This document shows, piece after piece, positions 14,278-24,372 of a stretch of DNA of 64,000 bases. Position 1 is the first letter of the stretch. The number at the start of each line of letters is the position of its first letter. A model generated the notes under the pieces. It was not told where the DNA came from. It did not search any database and saw only the letters and a program-made list of their open reading frames with translations. Both the position numbers and the translations under genes were made by a program. Source of the DNA: Takakia lepidozioides (lineage: Eukaryota; Plantae; Bryophyta); NCBI GenBank assembly GCA_030704615.1, contig CM060733.1, positions 9,238,001-9,302,000 on the forward strand, read 5' to 3'.

Positions 14278-16148
14278 ATGGAGGAACATGGTGCCAAGCT
14301 GTGAGTGCCACCTTTTGCTTGTATTACCGCCCTTCAACTCTCACTGATACCATTGACAGTCTTCTATTGTCTTCCGCACGGTAGACTTCACTGCTCAAGA
14401 TGTTAGCTATTTTAATCTTCAGCAGCTGGACATCGGTCGTTTCTGATCACGCCTTTAGCACTTGCTTCTTTATCATAGTTGATGCACATGACGGAGATTC
14501 GCGTCTCACAGCTCTCTCGTTTGAGATGAAAAGATCGCAGGTGAGGCAGTCATTTCTGACAACATGGGATCGAGACTCGATGCGACCACCCCACACAGAC
14601 GTCATTTTGAGGTCCAGAGATTTTGGAGAGGTCCATGGACACACAGCTGTTTTGGTATTCCTTACTCAATTGTTTCGACATTTGCACATAATACTAGATA
14701 ATGTACATGTTGCTACGATGTATGGTAGGTCACACTAACATCCATGGACTAGAGAGATCTGCGTATATACATGTGTGTGTATTAGTATACCGAACAGTGA
14801 TCAGCGTTTGGCGAGGACAAAATTATGAATGCATAGCCTGTGACCAACGATGTCGACCAATCCAGGTCCTAGCAAGGGAGTTTCGTTGATCCCTCCAACA
14901 AAATTTCCCTAAGAATCACCTCACAATCGTTTTAATGCTGTCAATTAGTCACCAAGTATCAGTGATTGTTGGTCTGGTAAGGGTATCAGACCCGAGTATC
15001 AGCGCTGGTATCAACCCTGGTATCAAGGACCAGACCAGCCTGGTCTTAAGTTCTACATACCAGGTCATATACCAGACCCAGGCTGGTATCCGTTTTCTCA
15101 TACCAGCCACAATAACAGTACCCCCAGCCGTCTTCCTCATTTACTCTGGTATTTGTATTATATTAATTTATGTATGTACTTATTTATATATTTTTATGTT
15201 TATTGTATTTGTTTTCACTGGATATTTGGTAAATTTGTAAGTCAAGATGCTTAGGAATGATACCAGAATTGATATCTCACACGAGCTGGTATTGTGGTCA
15301 TGATACTCATACTCATACCAGTATCTGGGAAAAAATACATCCACCATTATATAGACCAGACTTGGTATGAAAGTTTTGTGATGGGGCTGGTACCTGAAGG
15401 ACCAGTCTGGTATGTCCTAAACCTGATACCAGACCAACACTGGAACCTTGGTACAATGTCGATGCATTCAACATCATGCTGGCATAGTTATGAAGTAGCT
15501 GGTCATGTATTGAGTTATGAGTTGCATTTAAGTGCTGCTACCCCTCCACCTAATCATCGTTGTTAAGAATCAGCTCTGACATATGATCACATGACCGTTT
15601 GTTCTCTCTCTCACACTGACAGCTACATGCTAATATCTTCCTTTGGGTCTCTCTTATATATGTGCAATTCATGTTCACAGGTGGGCAAGTCCAAAGTGTT
15701 CAAGGCTATGTTTCTTCATAACATGGAAGAATCATCCACAAGAATAGTGAAAATGGATATGGAGCATTTGGCCGTTAAAGCATTTGTAAGCTTTTTTTAC
15801 ACAGGTTATGTGGAAGCTGACATCATGCGTGAACACGTGTTTGAGCTCCTGCAAGCTGCAGACATGTATGAGCTTAGTTTGCTGAAATCTGAGTGTGTAA
15901 ATGCGCTGAAGTCGAACATCCCTGCTCACCTCGTCTTTGAAACCTATGTCATGGGGAACCTATACAATGCCGAGGAACTCAAGCAAGCTGTGATTGAATA
16001 TCTGGCCACTCATGTGCCTGATTTGTCTGAAGTTGTTGGTTTTGACACTTTTCTTCGAGAGCACCCAGATATACTGGCAAATCTGACTGTTGCAGTTATC
16101 AGAGAGCTGAATCGAGAAAAGCTATGGATCAGTTTCATAGATCTGTGA
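14278..16148 (+). CDS. BTB/POZ domain protein (At4g08455-like); exons ~14278-14300 (tentative), 14423-14654, 15681-16148
   Basis: PPHTDVIL...HTAVL|VGKSKVFKAMF...FFYTG...LLQAADMYEL..LKSEC; GT-AG intron 14655-15680 at the same position as in the neighbouring paralogue. Start codon uncertain. Confidence 0.8.
14960..15442. mobile_element. hAT-like MITE in BTB intron
   Basis: TIR TGTTGGTCTGGTA / TACCAGACCAACACTG, many ATACC/GGTAT motifs; same termini as 23979-24372. Confidence 0.75.
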
Positions 16149-17130
16149 TCCACCTTTTCTGCAATAGGCCTGATAGAAGAAAAGAAACATCAGACTTCAC
16201 GGCGGAACTGTCAGAAACAGTTAAATGGTGTGATTAAGAAAATCAAGGACTACGAGAATCAACAATTGTCAGCATCAATTTTCAATTTTCATAACTGAAT
16301 TTGCATCTTTGGGGACACTTTACCTTGTTTGCATGTAATTACTTCCCTCTCCTTTGTCAGTGCAAGAGGTTGCCTTCCAAGTGGCCGGTTGGTTCGAAGT
16401 TCAAAGCCCAATACATATTTAATGTAGTCTATAATAACCCATCCAATTATAAAGTAGGGGTTCACCAGGTTCACAATGGAGTTCTACAAGGGGAAGCTAT
16501 GCCCCAACAATTGTGGGCTCTGGCATAACTGCACTGCCAAACAGAAGACTCTAGTACTTCCTCCCCAAGAGACCATCCATTGCACTTTCCATGGTTTGCC
16601 CCACAAGACCTCTCAACTATGATACACATAGATAACAGAATTTCTTGTAAGTTACTGAATTGTTTTCAACATCACAAACTTATCCAGCCATCTGTTGAAG
16701 AACACAGCAAATTATAAATAAGGCTCACCGATTCACTTCTCATAGAGAGATGCACAAATTGAATGGCCACAGCCAACAGACAAAGGGAATCCCCACGGGT
16801 TCATGCCCTCTCTGCTGAAATTTGGTTGGTATTAGAATATTTCTTTCAAGTGTCAATGTCCCTGTGAAGTACATAGAGATGCATCTTCCTGGCAGCTCTA
16901 CGTGGTATAAATACATTTGCTAAGGCCAAGAAAAGATCCTCCAGTACAGAAGCTCCAGATCAAAACAGCAGTCATCAATCAAAGCCAAGCAGGCCACAGA
17001 CAAACCAGTGACAGCATCAACAATATTTTTGAAAATCTGCTTTGATTTTGTAAAGACCCGGCCACACGACCACAAGCCCATGATGTGGAAGTCCTTGGTG
17101 AAAAATTGAACACGATGACATTAGTCCTTG

Positions 17131-18979
17131 TCAGCTAACTCTCCTCCTCTTGACAGCAGCAGCTTCAGCCTCTTTATCCTCACCCCCGCCATCGGCATCC
17201 ACATCTGCCTCTAATGTTGACAAGGTTAGAAAGTTGAAGTTGAAAGTCAACAGTCTCATTGAATGCATGACATTTAACGAAAGTTAGCAAACATAGTGTT
17301 TAGTATTGAATAATTACTGTTCATGTTCGTACGATCAACATAGAGCCCACCCGCAAGGGCGTATTTACGCTGATTTCAGTCAGCGTCACATCTGTATCTC
17401 TCTCTTATGATCATAACAATGGGGCCTGGATAGGTGCAGATTTGCTGCCAGGTGGTCTCTCAAAAATATCTTATCAATATACACACCTACTGATTGAAGC
17501 CACACAGCTGCATCAAGGCACCCTCTTGCACACTTACCCAAGGTGTGTTCAGATAGTTTCTTGCGCTTCAGCCGTTTCACAACCCCGTCATAGAGTTCCA
17601 TTACTGCCTCAGGACACTTTTTTGAGAAGGTGTCATATCCTTCAAGTGCTGAAACATCATCAATTTGTGTTGCAGCATAATCAATCACTCCATCTTTCAC
17701 AATGTCAGAGTTGTGTCTCCAGCCCACAACATAGGTAAGTAGCACCTTGCTCGGATTTAGGGACTTGAGTATTTCTTCCTCGCAGAGTGACTTTAATGCT
17801 TTCACCCCATACTTGTCTGCAGCTTGCAAGAGCTCAACTAAGTGACTTCTCAATGTGCGCTGGTTCACATTGGCTCGGTAAAAGAAGAGCACAAATGCGT
17901 CCAGTGCTGTGTAACCCATATCCATCTTCATGGTGTCAGATTCCGGCATTGGAATACCAAACAAGGCCTTGAATACTTCTGACTGGCTGACCTGTTAACC
18001 CTCCAACAACCATTCAAATAAGTGAGACGACACTAACCTTTTGAAACAGTCAGACCACGTCAATGACAAGTCCTATCCACAAAAGAACTCGACAAAGAAT
18101 CAGTGTAAGAATACATCATCTTCTAGAGTACATGGCAACCATTGATGTCAACAGACGACCTCTATGAGTGAAGACTCACAAAAACCACTTCAGCAGTACA
18201 TTTTGGCTTGCTCTCAGCTGAACCTTTGCATGAGGACAGTTTTAGACAGGAACCCACACAAGCCCATGTTGGCAAAGGACTAGGTGGTGAAAATTTTACT
18301 CTACCATGCAATCCACCAAGACCATGTCCTTCTACAATACTTACACAATGTACATGAAATCACCAATCAGCCACCTACTATCACATATCTATTAGGAAAG
18401 ATGACCAGTAACCGCCTTCCAAAGAAATTCAAACCCAAGGTCCAAAGACATTGGCTTCCGTCATGACAACTCGGATAATTCGTGAAATTGACGAAAATGG
18501 CCAACTCACAAATAAGAGAAGCCAGATTTTTTCCACGAAACAAGATGCCCTCCAGACAGAGATGGACCTGACACAAAGAGTCAAAGACCAGTTGATTCGC
18601 TTGAGGATGTATATAGCCTGGCTCCCTCCACAGTGGCAACACTTACCAAGACAGCTTTATGGGCGTAGACCTTGCGCCCCTCTGTTGACTCAAAAATGAT
18701 ATCCGTATATGGTGGCGGCAAATTGTCGGGATCCTTGTTACTCTCAAATTCCTTGCCTTGCAACTTGCGCTCAATGCTGGCAAGCTTCTCCTTCGTTTTC
18801 TCTAGTTCATCTACCAGAGCACGGTGCTGCTCAAATGAATCTTTACAACGCGCATCTTGTTTGCAAGTATCACAGCATATAATCTCTTTGTAGATAGTTG
18901 ACTCTGAACCTTCACACACAATATCTTGACTCCCGCACACTGTGCATAATTCTTGCTTGAATGGTTGTACAGCCAGGGT
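17131..18979 (-). CDS. BTB/POZ domain protein; exons ~18979/18996-18647, 17991-17538, 17210-17131; 5' end lies further upstream
   Basis: Cys-rich and coiled-coil N-terminal part, PPYTDIIF..AHKAVL|VSQSEVFKALF..LLQAADKYGVKALKSLCE. GTAAGT donors at 18646 and 17537; last exon ends in NLS-like VKRRRVS*. Confidence 0.85.
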
Positions 18980-19406
18980 CTGTATAGTTGCTGTGCCTGA
19001 AGACTAGTAATTGGACAGCTTTTCAGTTGAGGAATGTACAAATATCAGACAGCCACTGACCAAATAACTTCACAAGGTCACCATCAAATACTTCCTTGGA
19101 TCTACTAGAGATCCAATATTATGAAGTCAATAATTACTATGCAGAACCTGAGACACAAGGTCCCCATCAACTACCATCATAGTTCTATATCGATGTCAGA
19201 AATATCACCAAGTTATGTCCTCAATCTTCTCAATTGCATCTTCTAAAAGGTCAGGAGCTCAGCAAATTCAAGAGGATGAGACAACTAAATAGGTATTGAT
19301 CAGAAAAAATGTCCAGGGTAGTTGCATTATCAAGATTCCCCAAACAGTCACATGACCGAGAACAACGCTTCTCCCAAACACCTAATTGACATGAAACTTG
19401 TTTTAC

Positions 19407-21773
19407 CTTTGGCCTTTTGGACAGTTCCATTTCTAGAGCCAATGCCTTAGACCAGTCAATTAATCTCCCTGTAGCTTTGTCTACTTCTCCTGAGACGATT
19501 CGCTGCATTGCTCGTTCACGAATACCATCAAATTCAGCATCATCTCTGTGACAAGCACAAGCATTAGAAGAACACACAAGAAACACACTCCTATAACACA
19601 CCACCAGCATGAATATGCAGCTTTACCCCACCATAAATCCTGCAAACAAATGTACGGTATAAATCGATTGATGAGCAATAACACACCTCAAATATGTTCC
19701 AGCAACTCTAGGGCCTGTGTTAAGCGTATCGGGCTCAATAGGCACTCCTGCATACTGTAACCTGCGTGCCAATAGCACCGTAAATTTCAGAGGGCTTGCG
19801 TGCGAGGCCTGTCATCAAACAACAAACTCAAACTCAATGTGATATGACACAGAGCCTTACCTGCCTAAACCAGTTGTGCGCCCTGTCTTGTTTGTGTAGT
19901 ACTCTCCCCCCAGCCCTGTTTCCTTTGTCATTGTCCTCAACCAACTAGCAAGAGTTCTTACTCCCACGGGTGAGCGAGTGTACCACTGCACACCCAAATC
20001 AAGGAATGAGACCGCGAGGCTGGTATGTTCTTGCAGGAAATATTGACTCTCTGCATGCATGCCTATGATCAAAGAATACTCCATTGTAAATGATTCGTTC
20101 TGTTGATGTACAGATGCTCGAATCATAAGTTGAATTTCTAAACAACTCGCTCACCACGGACAATTTCAAGAACAAAACAGATAATGCATCAAATAGTCAT
20201 ATCAATATACCACAGTTCTCGAGGTTGGGTTCTTGATGTCTGTAAGAAATAACGGATGTGGCGGCGGTTCATCTTCTGCCCACTTCGGTTTGTGCTCTAT
20301 CAAGGTTTTGTACGTTACGACAACATCCTCAACATAGCATGTGACAGGGCGGGTGTACTTCTCTGCTTGGGCATGTTGAAGATCAGACTTCCAACTTTTG
20401 TATTGTTTCTCAAATCTGATAGCAAGAGCACATACTTCATTAAAGGCAAACAGATCACAATTCCCAATAGATCTGACTAAAGCCAAAAAGGTAACAGCAT
20501 CCTATAATCTAATTATTGGTACCTGATTGTCAAAGTAACAATGACCCAAGTACCTGGATCCAAACCATCATCTGCACCTACCCAGTAACAACAGTTTAGT
20601 ATTAGACATCAAAACCAGCCCACCAAAGAGTTTATACCTCAGAAACTCGCCATGTTGGTCTTTTCCCACAGAAAAATCCAGATCGGTGAGTTCATGGAGC
20701 TCAGCAGGACCGCGAATGAAGAAATTTCGTGTTGCAAAATATGCAAATCGCATCGAGCACCCCTTTGCAGTAGTACTCTTATAGCTAGGTAATGCAAGCA
20801 TGGAAGCTTCATCATGAAGCGTCAAGACATCAATGCGTTTTCTTCTCTTTCCCAAACCAAGCCTGCCAGCAGTTGACATGGTTTCAGTTACAGCTACCTG
20901 AGCCTTCTTGAATTTGACATCCGACATGATGTTGAATGGTACCTCAGCAACCCCTGTTTGTGCAACGCGTGCATCTTGGTGAGCACGAATGATTCGACCA
21001 ATAGCCCTCAAGAGACTTCCAGTGCTGTTGAACCATAACACATGCATGTAACACATCAGGACATCCACAATTATCATACAGAGCAAGTGCATACCTGAGT
21101 GCTAGGAAAGAAAAAACAAGCTCATAGGTGGAGGCAACCAACCAAAATACAACAATATCGAGAGGTTCAAATGTACTTACGTTTCAGGAGGATATTCTTT
21201 TCCATTTTGCTTTCGAACTTGGTACAAAAAACTCCCCACCATTTCAGCAAGCTCTTTCATATCTCGGTCACAGAAATCTTCAATGGATTCATTAATGTCT
21301 ATCTTGCAAAGTGAACGCCATGCATCAAATCTGGCGCGAGCCCAGGCCTCTGCACGCTTGCTTCTCGTCCTATCCCTATTGAGAATATTTGGAGACTCCT
21401 CTTCACTGATTCGACGAACACCCTGCCCGAGAGGCTCGGCCTTGCCATCAGACACCATCTGATTACCCTCAGACTCATCGTCGTCAGAAAGGGGAGCATC
21501 ACTATCGCTATTGCCAGGACCTTGGTTATTGATGTCCACCCCTGGTGTGACAGCAGGGCCTTCATCCTCAGATTCCTCCCCGTGATCTTGAGTCAAGACA
21601 AGTGACTGCGGAGGCGGTAATACAGCAGAGGGAAGGTCAGCGTTAACACTCTCAACCTCCAGAGGTTCCGTGCTTGCAGGAGCAACCAGGGATGATGGCA
21701 ATGGAGTTGAACTTAGGCCAAGTGAAAACGTAGGGTCAACATGGGAGCTCAATTCCCCTACAAAATCTGCCAT
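19407..21773 (-). CDS. Crypton/DUF3504-type tyrosine-recombinase-like protein; exons 21773-21181, 21024-20638, 20415-20211, 19985-19861, 19761-19687, 19545-19407 (508 codons, 3' end open)
   Basis: All five introns are GT-AG with matching phases and no stops. Motifs in order: KQNGKEYPPET..SLLRAIGR, NIMSDVKF, FFIRGPAELHEL, PLFL, VWYTRSPVGVRTL, GL..YYTNKTGRTTGLGRLQYAGVP, NTGPR. Confidence 0.8.
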
Positions 21774-22109
21774 CTGGCAATTTAAAAGATGCCAATCCAA
21801 CCGAAATCTGCAACGAAGGACCTGCCACAAAAATTCTAGGGAATAAGGGTCGAGATCACGAACAGGTCAAAATAAATTGTAAGAAAAAACTCACGTTCTC
21901 TGCCGAATAGTAAACAACCTAAAGCGTTCAGGATTCTTTGAGACACAACAAAAAACACATCTTACCAAATCAAACAGGCCATGGCTGAAGCGCTAATATC
22001 TTGAAGTGCAATCGCCGCATGATCTGGAAACGCATTGTGGAGAAAAACACGCTCCCTGATTCCTCCAGCACAATCCCTCCAAAAGCCTCAATGCAATGTT
22101 TCGCAAGCC

Positions 22110-22359
22110 CCTCCAGATGCAGATCACAGAACTCTAATCCTCGTAACCTCCCAAAATTCGACACGAAGACCATTCCACACGTAAAAGACCTCGATGAACA
22201 TGCCACACTGCCCGATTCTATGCCAAACTCTGCGAAAATCTCAATGTAATCCCCCCAACCTCTCCAGACGCAGATCACAACACTCTAATCCTCACAACCT
22301 CCCACAATCCGACACCAAGACTATTCCAAGCGTAAAGACCTCGATGCACAGGCCCTGCC
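22110..22359. repeat. Two diverged ~100-bp direct repeats upstream of the DUF3504 gene
   Basis: CTCCAGAYGCAGATCACA..ACTCTAATCCTC...AAGACCTCGATG at ~22110 and ~22261. Confidence 0.8.
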
Positions 22360-23978
22360 GTGCGTAGAAGACAACAGACGCTGGAATCCAGACCTGGCTA
22401 TGGCCGCTGCTCCCCGGAATGTTGTGTGGCGAGACACCACGGCCCGCCCTGCCTCGGAATCGTCACCGTCGCCCGCCCCTCGCCTGCCCATTTCGCCACC
22501 CTTTCGCCACGGCCTCGCCCGTTTCTTATCGTAATGTTCTCCGTCCTCCCCTCGCTCACCATCCTCCCCAAAACTCAAACCTTCTTCCTTCTCTTTGCTA
22601 CACCAGCCCGAATGTTTTTTTCCTTGGTCTGCCCACTAAATCTGGGCAGTAAGAATAACATTTCAGGGCTTGTTCTCAGGGCGGGCATGTTTGGGCAGTC
22701 CACCTTGTGGGGTGATCTTATTTATAATATGAGCTGAGGCCCCTAACAAATCAAATATTCCTGATGTGTGAAACTTGTCGCTGTTCAACGTCATTTTCCA
22801 CAGTGCATGGAAATCTAAAATAAATTTCTACAAAAAGCAGCAGAATGCTGGATTCCATGTGATGCAATGTCTATTTGGACACATATATTCCCCCCCACCC
22901 CCCACCTCGCTTTCCAAGACAATACTCTGGGCTTATGGATTGGATAACAATCAGTATAAAAGGGGGGCATTATGTGAAATAGAGACGAAGACTGCCCCAG
23001 AGTTTCACGTAGGGGCCCCTACTATTGGCTTAAAGGTGGGGAATGCCCATTTGGCCTACGTTGAACCACATGGCGAGTTGAGCACTATTCACCTAGATGG
23101 TCCACTCACCACGTCACCGGTTGAGCATTCTGCTCATTGAGCGCGTTCCCTACAATGGATAGCAGCTTTCCCCAAATCTGCCACTTGAGCATGGTAGGTT
23201 GGTCAATTCAAAGATAGTGTAATGGCTCAAAATGTTTCAAGTTTAACACCAAATTTTCTAATGAAAACAAAACAACCGCATGGTACATGCTAGCCATGCC
23301 CTTCATCATCTCATAGTAAGGTTCTTGTTCCACATAATGATGTTAGTCTTACAGTCCTGTCAATTTCGGATCAATCTAACCCATAGTTCAATGAGTCTAT
23401 AGCTTTGAATCAGTCTGAGTGCGCGTTCCATGCTTTATTTTCATGCAAAGAATGCAAAGATAAATTCTGTTACTGCTACCCACATGTCACTCATTTTATA
23501 AAATGCCCGTGTGTTTGGTGTCAGTAACTACTATCTACTACCTTCTTCTTTTTAAAACTTGACACAAACAGCAAACTTCAACAAGCAAATATATTTCATC
23601 CAACAGCTGCAATATATTTCATGCAACACCAAATTTGCCTATACTATTTATTTTAACCTCACACAAAAAGCAGCAAACTCTAATTATAAGCAAATATATT
23701 TTGTCCAACTCCAAAATCAATGTATATCCAGAAACAATCATCCAGCGAATTGGTCCCATGAAAAGCTGGTCCCAGACAAGCGGGGAGAGACCATCGCGTC
23801 TTTGCCTAAAGGCAGACCAACAAAATTGTTTTATCGTTCCATATGAAGAACCACTATTTTTCAATTCTTTTCCCCTAGACTTGTTGAGTTGGGGCGAGAT
23901 GAGCACATAGTTGTTTATTTTCTTTGTCCAACTTAGTCGTTGTGTACACACATATGTACTAACTTTATTGGTATGAAC

Positions 23979-24372
23979 CAGTGTTGGTCTGGTATCTTGA
24001 ATTGGAAATACCAGAAGGGTCCTGGTATGAAGTGCTGAATTTTTTTAAGGCAGGTAGGTTTTCCAATAATGCAGCCCCTGATTTTTTCAAGTATGAATCT
24101 GGTATGCATAGAGTGGTTTTAAAAAAAAAATCAATCCGGATATGAGCAATGGTATCTGAATGTCAATAACCTAGAAATATGAACTCGGATATGGTATTAA
24201 GAAAATAATAAAATAAAAATGGTTACTAGTATTCAAATTCAATTTCAATATTGAAATGACCATCTGAACTATTCAAATGGCCATTTGAATATTGTCTCGC
24301 AAATGAAGATCAAAGTGTCATTGTTATAATCAAATAGATACCCGGCGAAACCCAGATACCAGACCAACACTG
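23979..24372. mobile_element. hAT-like MITE
   Basis: 18-bp perfect TIR CAGTGTTGGTCTGGTATC; 8-bp TSD GTATGAAC/GTATAAAC. Confidence 0.85.

What the first reader, a model, noticed from the sequence alone, without database searches (positions are those of the whole stretch)
19407..21773. Intact, intron-rich Crypton-like tyrosine recombinase gene with apparently substituted catalytic residues
Seen: six exons splice with consistent phases into 508 stop-free codons, unlike the decayed transposases elsewhere in the window. The first catalytic Arg (FFIRG) is kept. The HxxR box reads NKTGR. The expected TGH.S...L..Y box reads TGPRVAGTYLRD, placing Pro (CCT) at the His position and Asp (GAT) at the nucleophilic Tyr position, each one base from CAT and TAT. 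Known: Cryptons are described mainly from fungi, animals and stramenopiles, and their domesticated derivatives (ZMYM2-4, QRICH1, KCTD1) have lost catalytic residues. Inference: a domesticated DNA-binding protein or a recently inactivated Crypton lineage in a land plant.
Basis: partly seen in the sequence, partly recalled or inferred. Interest (0 to 1): 0.78.

Follow-up and report, generated by a model that had tools for sequence, protein, structure and literature searches.

The report
Tamed transposon recombinase-BTB gene in mosses
A spliced moss gene, conserved from peat moss to Physcomitrium, joins a likely transposon-derived recombinase domain that lacks its DNA-cutting tyrosine to a BTB domain; it is predicted to act as a DNA-bound regulator and apparently repeats, independently, the design of vertebrate KCTD1.

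Summary
The six exons are real, but they are only the front of the gene. Spliced contigs from two studies join them to three more exons, giving an 802-residue protein: a Cre-like tyrosine-recombinase domain fused to a SPOP-like BTB-BACK domain. Orthologues with the same fusion exist in Physcomitrium (69% identical), Ceratodon and Sphagnum. Seven of seven tested introns are shared with the Sphagnum-type loci, dN/dS on the recombinase domain is 0.16, and the locus has single-copy depth. It is therefore an old host gene, not a recently inactivated element. His to Pro454 and Tyr to Asp463 are confirmed and fixed in all full-length orthologues. NKTGR is not a loss: the nearest relatives, from liverworts, ferns, a lycophyte and a moss, carry KxxR, and 19 of 23 keep His and Tyr. 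They form a CryptonA-like plant lineage that ten literature searches did not find described. Best reading: a domesticated, non-cutting DNA clamp coupled to a BTB-BACK oligomer and likely CUL3 adaptor, convergent with vertebrate KCTD1b. Domestication is well supported; the molecular job is inferred and untested.

The parts
21966..22424 (-). 5' UTR exon (at least to 22424; true start unknown)
   Evidence: X5 contig piece 21964-22424 joined across a 144-nt GT..AG intron (donor 21965, acceptor 21822)
21181..21821 (-). Coding exon 1 (ATG at 21773): acidic, predicted disordered N-terminus (residues 1-133) and start of the recombinase core-binding domain
   Evidence: pLDDT under 50 for most of residues 1-123 of the Physcomitrium orthologue
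20638..21024 (-). Coding exon 2: rest of core-binding domain, basic linker KRRKR (257-261), first catalytic Arg302 (20714-20712)
   Evidence: 80% identical to Physcomitrium P0002
20211..20415 (-). Coding exon 3: Lys333 (20399-20397), in the column that is Lys in 40 of 41 plant-type relatives; likely the catalytic Lys
19861..19985 (-). Coding exon 4: KxxR box (Lys428 at 19889-19887, Arg431 at 19880-19878)
19687..19761 (-). Coding exon 5: Pro454 (19712-19710) in place of the second His; Tyr460, non-catalytic position
19407..19545 (-). Coding exon 6: Asp463 (19544-19542) in place of the nucleophilic Tyr; conserved C-terminal helices of the recombinase domain
18647..19003 (-).
   Evidence: joints in X5 and X6
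17538..17991 (-). Coding exon 8 (missed): BTB-BACK body and basic cluster 766-772 (likely nuclear signal, inferred)
   Evidence: Pfam BTB E 8e-9 and BACK_BPM_SPOP E 1.5e-4, the latter below cut-off
16824..17204 (-). Coding exon 9 (stop ends 17131) and 3' UTR to at least 16824
14385..16148 (+). Neighbouring stand-alone BTB gene, tail to tail with the fusion gene; closest unfused relative of the fused BTB among those compared (start not defined)

Best explanation
This is a spliced, conserved moss gene in which a likely Crypton-derived tyrosine-recombinase domain lacking its nucleophilic tyrosine is fused to a SPOP-like BTB-BACK domain, and it is predicted to bind DNA without cutting and likely to bring a BTB oligomer and CUL3 ubiquitin ligase to chromatin. 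Origin (inferred): an intron-bearing KxxR-type plant Crypton came to lie upstream of one copy of a duplicated BTB gene before Sphagnum split from other mosses; splicing joined the two; His and Tyr were lost and the fusion was kept. Working (inferred): the core-binding and catalytic domains clamp DNA as Cre does, using retained Arg302, Lys333, Lys428, Arg431 and the basic linker; with Asp in place of Tyr no phosphotyrosine can form; BTB-BACK multimerises the clamp and takes the place that SPOP-type adaptors give to CUL3, with the dead recombinase standing where their substrate-binding domain stands. My odds: domesticated host gene 0.95; no cleavage 0.93; binds DNA or chromatin 0.7; CUL3 adaptor 0.5.
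For: Shown: fusion transcript in two studies and in two spliced moss-type contigs, L001 and L005; full-length orthologues in Physcomitrium, Ceratodon, Sphagnum, 67-70% identical; 7 of 7 tested intron positions and phases shared with L002 and L003; dN/dS window vs L003 0.16 (recombinase domain, 364 codons), 0.11 (BTB), 0.40 (N-terminus); L003 vs L002 14 synonymous to 1 non-synonymous difference in the recombinase domain; single-copy-level depth, one 5187-nt contig with no differences, against depths in the thousands in flanking repeats. Fold (predicted on the Physcomitrium orthologue): residues about 125-500 at pLDDT mostly over 90 match Cre (E 5.5e-7, TM 0.60 to target) and also QRICH1 in 9hjt; the C-terminal half matches SPOP BTB-BACK (E 2e-9; TM 0.79 to 4j8z). 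Register of His to Pro and Tyr to Asp is gapless against Riccia relatives through the downstream QRI[IV]SGEV motif. R302, K333, K428, R431 are invariant in 6 of 6 orthologue rows. The neighbouring unfused BTB gene shares the phase-0 intron after H[KT]AVL and is sister, with P0144, to the fused BTB (SH 0.986).
Against: No binding, localisation or phenotype data were obtained. Pfam DUF3504 stays under its cut-off (22.7 vs 29.7 bits on P0002) and no single exon of the window hit it. The likely CUL3-contacting loop (motif recalled from SPOP; aligned) is diverged: M-x-E/D is kept but with a Pro in most orthologues and a gap of about 3 residues against free plant BTBs. Mobility of the plant relatives was not shown (no ends, no empty sites). 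Flanking genes are not syntenic with L002-L004, so the neighbour BTB gene as a relic of the origin rests on one genome. The models are of the Physcomitrium protein, not the window's. One diverged contig at single-copy depth also matches short parts of exons 1-2, so a paralogue likely exists.
Confidence: 0.62

Rival explanations
1. The dead recombinase domain works mainly as a protein-binding co-regulator that docks on DNA-bound transcription factors, as QRICH1 does in the Zincore complex, and BTB only multimerises or recruits co-repressors (KCTD1-like), without CUL3.
For: Fold match to QRICH1 in 9hjt, entry title 'Zincore (SEPHS1:QRICH1) binding to ZFP91 on DNA'; KCTD1 represses AP-2alpha through its BTB (PMC3212892, passages); whole-protein feature search ranks KCTD1-like clusters first at 0.87, a lead only; diverged CUL3 loop.
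Against: Phosphate-contacting Arg/Lys positions are invariant, whereas the animal domesticates all lost the second Arg; the BTB is of SPOP/BACK type, not KCTD type.
Confidence: 0.2
2. It is a defence gene: the dead recombinase binds Crypton ends or joins active Crypton recombinase oligomers and hands them to CUL3 for destruction.
For: Free-standing copies found in the peat metagenome contigs are all decayed (11 loci, about 5 distinct); the C-terminal helices are nearly invariant in mosses and resemble those of Riccia-type relatives.
Against: Strong purifying selection with no sign of an arms race in the pairs tested; the scan patterns were moss-gene motifs, so intact elements could have been missed; persistence long after the local elements decayed argues for a host job.
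Confidence: 0.13
3. The domain is still an enzyme and uses Tyr460, three residues upstream, as nucleophile.
For: Tyr460 is kept in all full-length orthologues, with R, K, K, R of the active site.
Against: That column is Tyr or Phe (Leu, Ile, Val in HxxR types) in relatives that also have the true Tyr three residues later; the alignment is gapless on both sides; the second His is Pro.
Confidence: 0.04
4. It is a recently inactivated mobile Crypton copy that reads into a neighbouring BTB gene by chance.
For: Pro and Asp codons are one base from His and Tyr codons; introns 1 and 2 are element-like.
Against: Same fusion, same substitutions and same introns in Sphagnum-type loci, same fusion and substitutions in Ceratodon and Physcomitrium; single-copy depth; dN/dS 0.16.
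Confidence: 0.01

Closest known systems
Vertebrate KCTD1 isoform b (DUF3504 + BTB/POZ; Kojima and Jurka 2011, PMC3212892)
   Same: N-terminal Crypton-derived dead recombinase, C-terminal BTB; proposed origin by Crypton insertion upstream of a duplicated BTB gene; catalytic Tyr lost (passages). Nearest cluster by features for the whole protein, 0.87, a lead only.
   Different: BTB class: PF00651 with SPOP-like BACK here, PF02214 BTB_2 with KCTD1-15 C-terminal domain there. Recombinase from a separate KxxR plant clade (UFBoot 100; KCTD1 itself was not in the tree) and split over six exons, against one exon in KCTD1. Second Arg kept here, lost in all animal domesticates. No BTB-only isoform seen here.
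CryptonA elements and Glomhoppers (DUF3504 recombinases of animals and Glomeromycota; PMC3212892, PMC13465315)
   Same: Same two-domain recombinase; sub-threshold DUF3504 and QRICH1-domain hits; top feature hit DUF3504/phage-integrase cluster, 0.98; Glomhoppers can carry introns.
   Different: Those keep R-H-R-Y and are multi-copy. The plant lineage has R-K-R-Y, like SSV1-type integrases (R...KxxR...Y, PMC8371274). The moss gene has lost the Tyr and is single-locus.
ZMYM2/3/4, WOC, QRICH1 (Zincore), KIAA1958; yeast Gcr1, Cbf2/Ndc10
   Same: Host genes domesticated from Crypton recombinases with lost catalytic sites, acting on DNA or chromatin.
   Different: Other lineages and other partner domains; none is fused to BTB-BACK.
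ALOG (LSH1/G1) plant regulators (PMC3537659, abstract only)
   Same: Land-plant regulators derived from a tyrosine-recombinase DNA-binding domain.
   Different: From DIRS1-type retroposons, N-terminal domain only, with a zinc ribbon; here the whole Crypton-type recombinase is kept.
SPOP and plant BPM-type BTB-BACK CUL3 adaptors
   Same: BTB-BACK fold and sequence (E 4.7e-13).
   Different: No MATH domain; a dead recombinase stands in its place. CUL3 binding untested.

Membership tests
Tyrosine recombinase fold | Core-binding plus catalytic domain fold of Cre/XerD type | tested here: met
   Model of orthologue P0002 matches Cre, Tn1549 Int, XerH
Active tyrosine recombinase | First catalytic Arg | tested here: met
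   Arg302
Active tyrosine recombinase | HxxR box (KxxR in SSV1-type enzymes) | tested here: met
   KxxR form: Lys428, Arg431; Lys in 42 of 47 covered plant-type rows; KxxR variant cited in PMC8371274
Active tyrosine recombinase | Second His/Trp | tested here: not met
   Pro454; His in 35 of 40 covered plant-type rows
Active tyrosine recombinase | Nucleophilic Tyr | tested here: not met
   Asp463; Tyr in 36 of 37 covered plant-type rows
DUF3504 (PF12012) | Pfam score at or above the curated cut-off | tested here: inconclusive
   P0002 22.7 bits (E 1.2e-4) vs cut-off 29.7; relatives P0064 and P0075 pass; no hit on single window exons
Mobile Crypton element | Multiple dispersed similar copies | tested here: not met
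   Single-copy-level depth at 80% likeness; one diverged extra contig. No genome assembly was held
Mobile Crypton element | Defined ends, short terminal direct repeats, empty sites | not testable with these tools
   No allele or genome without the gene; CryptonA elements have no terminal repeats
Domesticated transposon gene | Orthologues in distant species with intact frame | tested here: met
   Physcomitrium, Ceratodon, Sphagnum
Domesticated transposon gene | Spliced expression | tested here: met
   9 of 9 introns skipped in X5, 5 in X6; run type is a guess by the tool
Domesticated transposon gene | Purifying selection on the transposon-derived domain | tested here: met
   dN/dS 0.16 vs L003; 14:1 between L003 and L002
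Domesticated transposon gene | Conserved synteny | tested here: not met
   No shared neighbours with L002-L004 within the 3-10 kb held; little weight at this distance
KCTD1b orthologue | BTB_2 (PF02214) with KCTD1-15 C-terminal domain; DUF3504 in one exon | tested here: not met
   PF00651 with BACK; six exons
BTB-BACK CUL3 adaptor | BTB plus 3-box/BACK helices | tested here: met
   Pfam BTB E 1.3e-16; SPOP match by sequence and fold
BTB-BACK CUL3 adaptor | Intact CUL3-contact loop (phi-x-E, recalled) | tested here: inconclusive
   M-x-E/D kept, surroundings diverged
BTB-BACK CUL3 adaptor | Binding to CUL3 | not tested

The most novel reading that the evidence does not exclude
Non-seed land plants host their own, undescribed, possibly still active CryptonA-like lineage with an R-K-R-Y active site; it was domesticated several times (this moss gene, Marchantia Mp5g04240, a Diphasiastrum-containing clade), and in mosses it produced a DNA-anchored CUL3 ubiquitin-ligase adaptor whose targeting module is a dead recombinase clamp, an independent re-invention of the KCTD1b design.
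Probability: 0.35. Interest if true: 0.85.

Novelty: new variant of a known kind. Interest (0 to 1): 0.68.

Why it matters
Crypton domestication is described for animals and yeasts; this would be a land-plant case, as old as the split of Sphagnum from other mosses, and a second independent recombinase-BTB fusion, suggesting the pairing is repeatedly useful. What domesticated DUF3504 domains do is largely open; Physcomitrium has the orthologue (XP_024387143) and easy gene targeting (recalled), so the question becomes directly testable. The finding also exposes a plant Crypton-like lineage with an unusual KxxR active site and apparently intact members in liverworts and ferns.

Tried and rejected
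No assembly of this genome was held, so copy number rests on contig depth, which the tool warns is no true copy number. No listed run is on record as RNA. Pfam found nothing on the six recombinase-half stretches one by one. Word-based searches with P0002 125-500 and with alignment A3 returned only 3 and 6 proteins. A first alignment was too diverse for a locus scan. The second structural aligner was busy four times and gave no result. Homodimer prediction of the recombinase domain gave no verdict. Inverted repeat arms 15398-15443 and 23978-24023 were considered as element ends and rejected: both lie in repeats with depth in the thousands and the left one is inside the neighbour gene's intron. 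A zinc site in the Cys-containing linker was considered and not supported: second CxxC absent in Sphagnum, pLDDT under 50. The donor sub-lineage could not be fixed (UFBoot 53); transfer from Glomeromycota was not tested, as no Glomhopper was identified among the rows. Searches were uninformative. Earlier-finding look-ups returned nothing. Literature search was too loose to be useful.

Full report
Observation. But 19407 is followed by a donor. Contigs of two runs from two studies (X5, X6; RNA by the tool's guess) skip GT..AG introns 19406-19004, 18646-17992 and 17537-17205; X5 skips all 9 introns including one in the 5' UTR, X6 skips 5. One X5 contig runs from 22424 into exon 8, and one X6 contig from exon 6 to the 3' UTR. 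The spliced frame is 802 codons, stop ending at 17131. Exons 7-8 encode a BTB domain.

Orthologues. Exon 2 retrieved 7 proteins among 451 candidates, among them an 824-residue Physcomitrium patens protein with BTB, 69% identical over the whole length. Cluster look-ups added Ceratodon purpureus and Sphagnum magellanicum proteins with the same architecture; databases call them uncharacterised, hypothetical or BTB domain-containing. A metagenome scan gave 18 loci from 323 pattern matches; 6 are orthologues. L002 and L003, 99-99.6% identical to the Sphagnum protein, share 7 of 7 tested intron positions and phases (intron 8 not tested); L001 and L005 are spliced and span both halves. Nei-Gojobori dN/dS, window against L003: 0.16 for the recombinase domain, 0.11 for BTB, 0.33 linker, 0.40 N-terminus (dS about 1, partly saturated); L003 against L002 shows 14 synonymous and 1 non-synonymous difference in the recombinase domain. 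In DNA runs of one sample the gene lies on contigs of depth 25-38 (X1), one of 5187 nt without differences, while flanking repeats reach thousands; one diverged contig also matches short parts of exons 1-2, likely a paralogue. The host is a moss or close sister by these relations: the window protein is sister to the other eight rows of the fusion clade (UFBoot 84 for those eight, 100 for the clade).

What the N-terminal half is. Pfam gives DUF3504 at E 1.2e-4, under the cut-off, and a weak QRICH1-domain hit on the orthologue. An AlphaFold2 model of P0002 with a 78-row alignment is confident over residues about 125-500 and matches Cre and other tyrosine recombinases, and QRICH1 in 9hjt. The feature search ranks a DUF3504/phage-integrase cluster first at 0.98. 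So it works like, and descends from, a DUF3504-type recombinase; formal Pfam membership is not reached.

Catalytic residues and the plant lineage. A full-library search gave 3720 hits at E up to 0.001; I examined the best 150. The nearest non-orthologous recombinase domains are 29-43% identical. Of 19 such clusters looked up, 12 carry names, all non-seed land plants: Riccia, Calypogeia, Marchantia, Adiantum, Diphasiastrum, Ceratodon; 7 are unnamed. In a 50-row tree (359 columns; rows under 230 columns and 20 near-duplicate or multi-domain rows left out) 36 rows including the moss gene are split from 14 mostly HxxR-type DUF3504 rows, whose taxa I did not look up, with UFBoot 100; the moss gene's place inside is unresolved, 53. 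Among 81 plant-type non-orthologue rows, the HxxR His column is Lys in 42 of 47 covered, the second His is His in 35 of 40, the nucleophile is Tyr in 36 of 37. After removing near-duplicates, 19 of 23 rows covering all three sites have Lys, His and Tyr, and 8 of 14 that also cover the first Arg have the full R-K-K-R-H-Y set. KxxR is the consensus of active SSV1-type integrases (PMC8371274, passages). NKTGR is therefore inherited, not a lesion. The real losses are His to Pro454 and Tyr to Asp463, in a gapless register against Riccia relatives, fixed in every full-length orthologue (one unspliced fragment, P0113, and the frameshifted P0004 differ where they leave the frame). Eleven metagenome loci, about five distinct, are decayed free-standing copies with stops and frameshifts; L008 has introns where the window has introns 1 and 2, and five protein fragments of relatives end exactly at the intron 2 position. 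Part of the intron richness came with the element. Mobility of the intact relatives is inferred, not shown.

What the C-terminal half is. BTB passes Pfam (E 1.3e-16); best solved relative by sequence and by fold is SPOP BTB-BACK. The tail-to-tail neighbour at about 14385-16148 is an unfused BTB gene with the same phase-0 intron and, with P0144, is sister to the fused BTB among 64 rows (SH 0.986), which fits origin from a local duplicate; it is absent from the flanks of L002-L004.

Mechanism. Shown: splicing, fusion, conservation, selection, residue states. Predicted: both folds. Inferred: DNA binding without cleavage (R302, K333, K428, R431 and the basic linker invariant; a recombinase without its Tyr cannot form the phosphotyrosine intermediate, established knowledge), nuclear location (basic clusters), BTB-BACK oligomerisation and CUL3 recruitment (by likeness to SPOP; contact loop diverged). 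I commit to a DNA-anchored BTB adaptor; rivals are a QRICH1/KCTD1-like co-regulator, an anti-Crypton trap and residual catalysis.

Comparison and novelty. Kojima and Jurka (PMC3212892; read: parts 1-2 of 7 and passages) list Cryptons in fungi, animals and stramenopiles and describe KCTD1b as DUF3504 plus BTB, born by insertion upstream of a duplicated BTB gene. The Glomhopper paper (PMC13465315; abstract, first part of Results, passages) reports DUF3504 in animals and Glomeromycota, with no plant copies in the passages seen. Active CryptonF is known in Chlamydomonas (PMC9977147, passages). ALOG is a plant precedent from another element class (PMC3537659, abstract). PMC11630846, PMC9406493, PMC5753468 and PMC13538652 were seen as passages only; the Zincore paper itself was not read. 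Ten full-text searches, judged from listings, showed no description of land-plant DUF3504 elements or of this gene; none of the 19 papers holding DUF3504 has a plant subject by title. The library lacks most subscription papers, Repbase was not searchable, and no supplements were opened; the Glomhopper and Kojima supplements may list plant hits. UniRef already labels the Marchantia relative as DUF3504 domain-containing. Verdict: new variant of a known kind; interest 0.68.

Noticed in passing
window 14385-16148 (+): Stand-alone BTB gene, tail to tail with the fusion gene, about 40% identical to its BTB half, same intron position, a high-copy repeat in its intron; start codon not defined and no cover of its second exon in X5 or X6.
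   Followed up: partly
window 20728-21707 (joints): A diverged contig at single-copy depth in DNA runs and in X5 matches short parts of exons 1-2: likely an expressed paralogue or related copy.
   Followed up: no
L007-L017: About five distinct decayed copies of the plant Crypton-like lineage in metagenome contigs; L008 9890-10480 keeps introns at the window's intron 1 and 2 positions.
   Followed up: partly
proteins P0067/P0208 (Marchantia Mp5g04240) and P0102/P0108/P0110/P0197 (Diphasiastrum-containing clade): Conserved relatives with altered catalytic residues; candidates for further independent domestications.
   Followed up: no
ESM Atlas cluster, rank 2: A mostly mollusc cluster with BTB (PF00651, 100% of members) and DUF3504 (11%): lead for a third recombinase-BTB fusion.
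   Followed up: no
protein P0065 (Adiantum): PPR repeats joined to an intact-looking recombinase domain; may be a gene-model artefact or an insertion.
   Followed up: no
window 21774-22424 (-): The spliced 5' UTR (at least 507 nt) holds five upstream ATGs and a 78-nt direct repeat at 22108-22185 and 22259-22336, 85% alike.
   Followed up: no
window 19266-19419: A low-depth X6 contig runs from exon 6 into intron 6: unspliced precursor or an alternative end giving a protein without BTB.
   Followed up: no
window 49437-50876 (-): 479-codon open frame with a group II intron maturase domain (Pfam Intron_maturas2, E 3e-17); likely organelle-derived DNA.
   Followed up: no
proteins P0006/P0007: A diverged, apparently damaged Physcomitrium paralogue of the fusion gene.
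   Followed up: no
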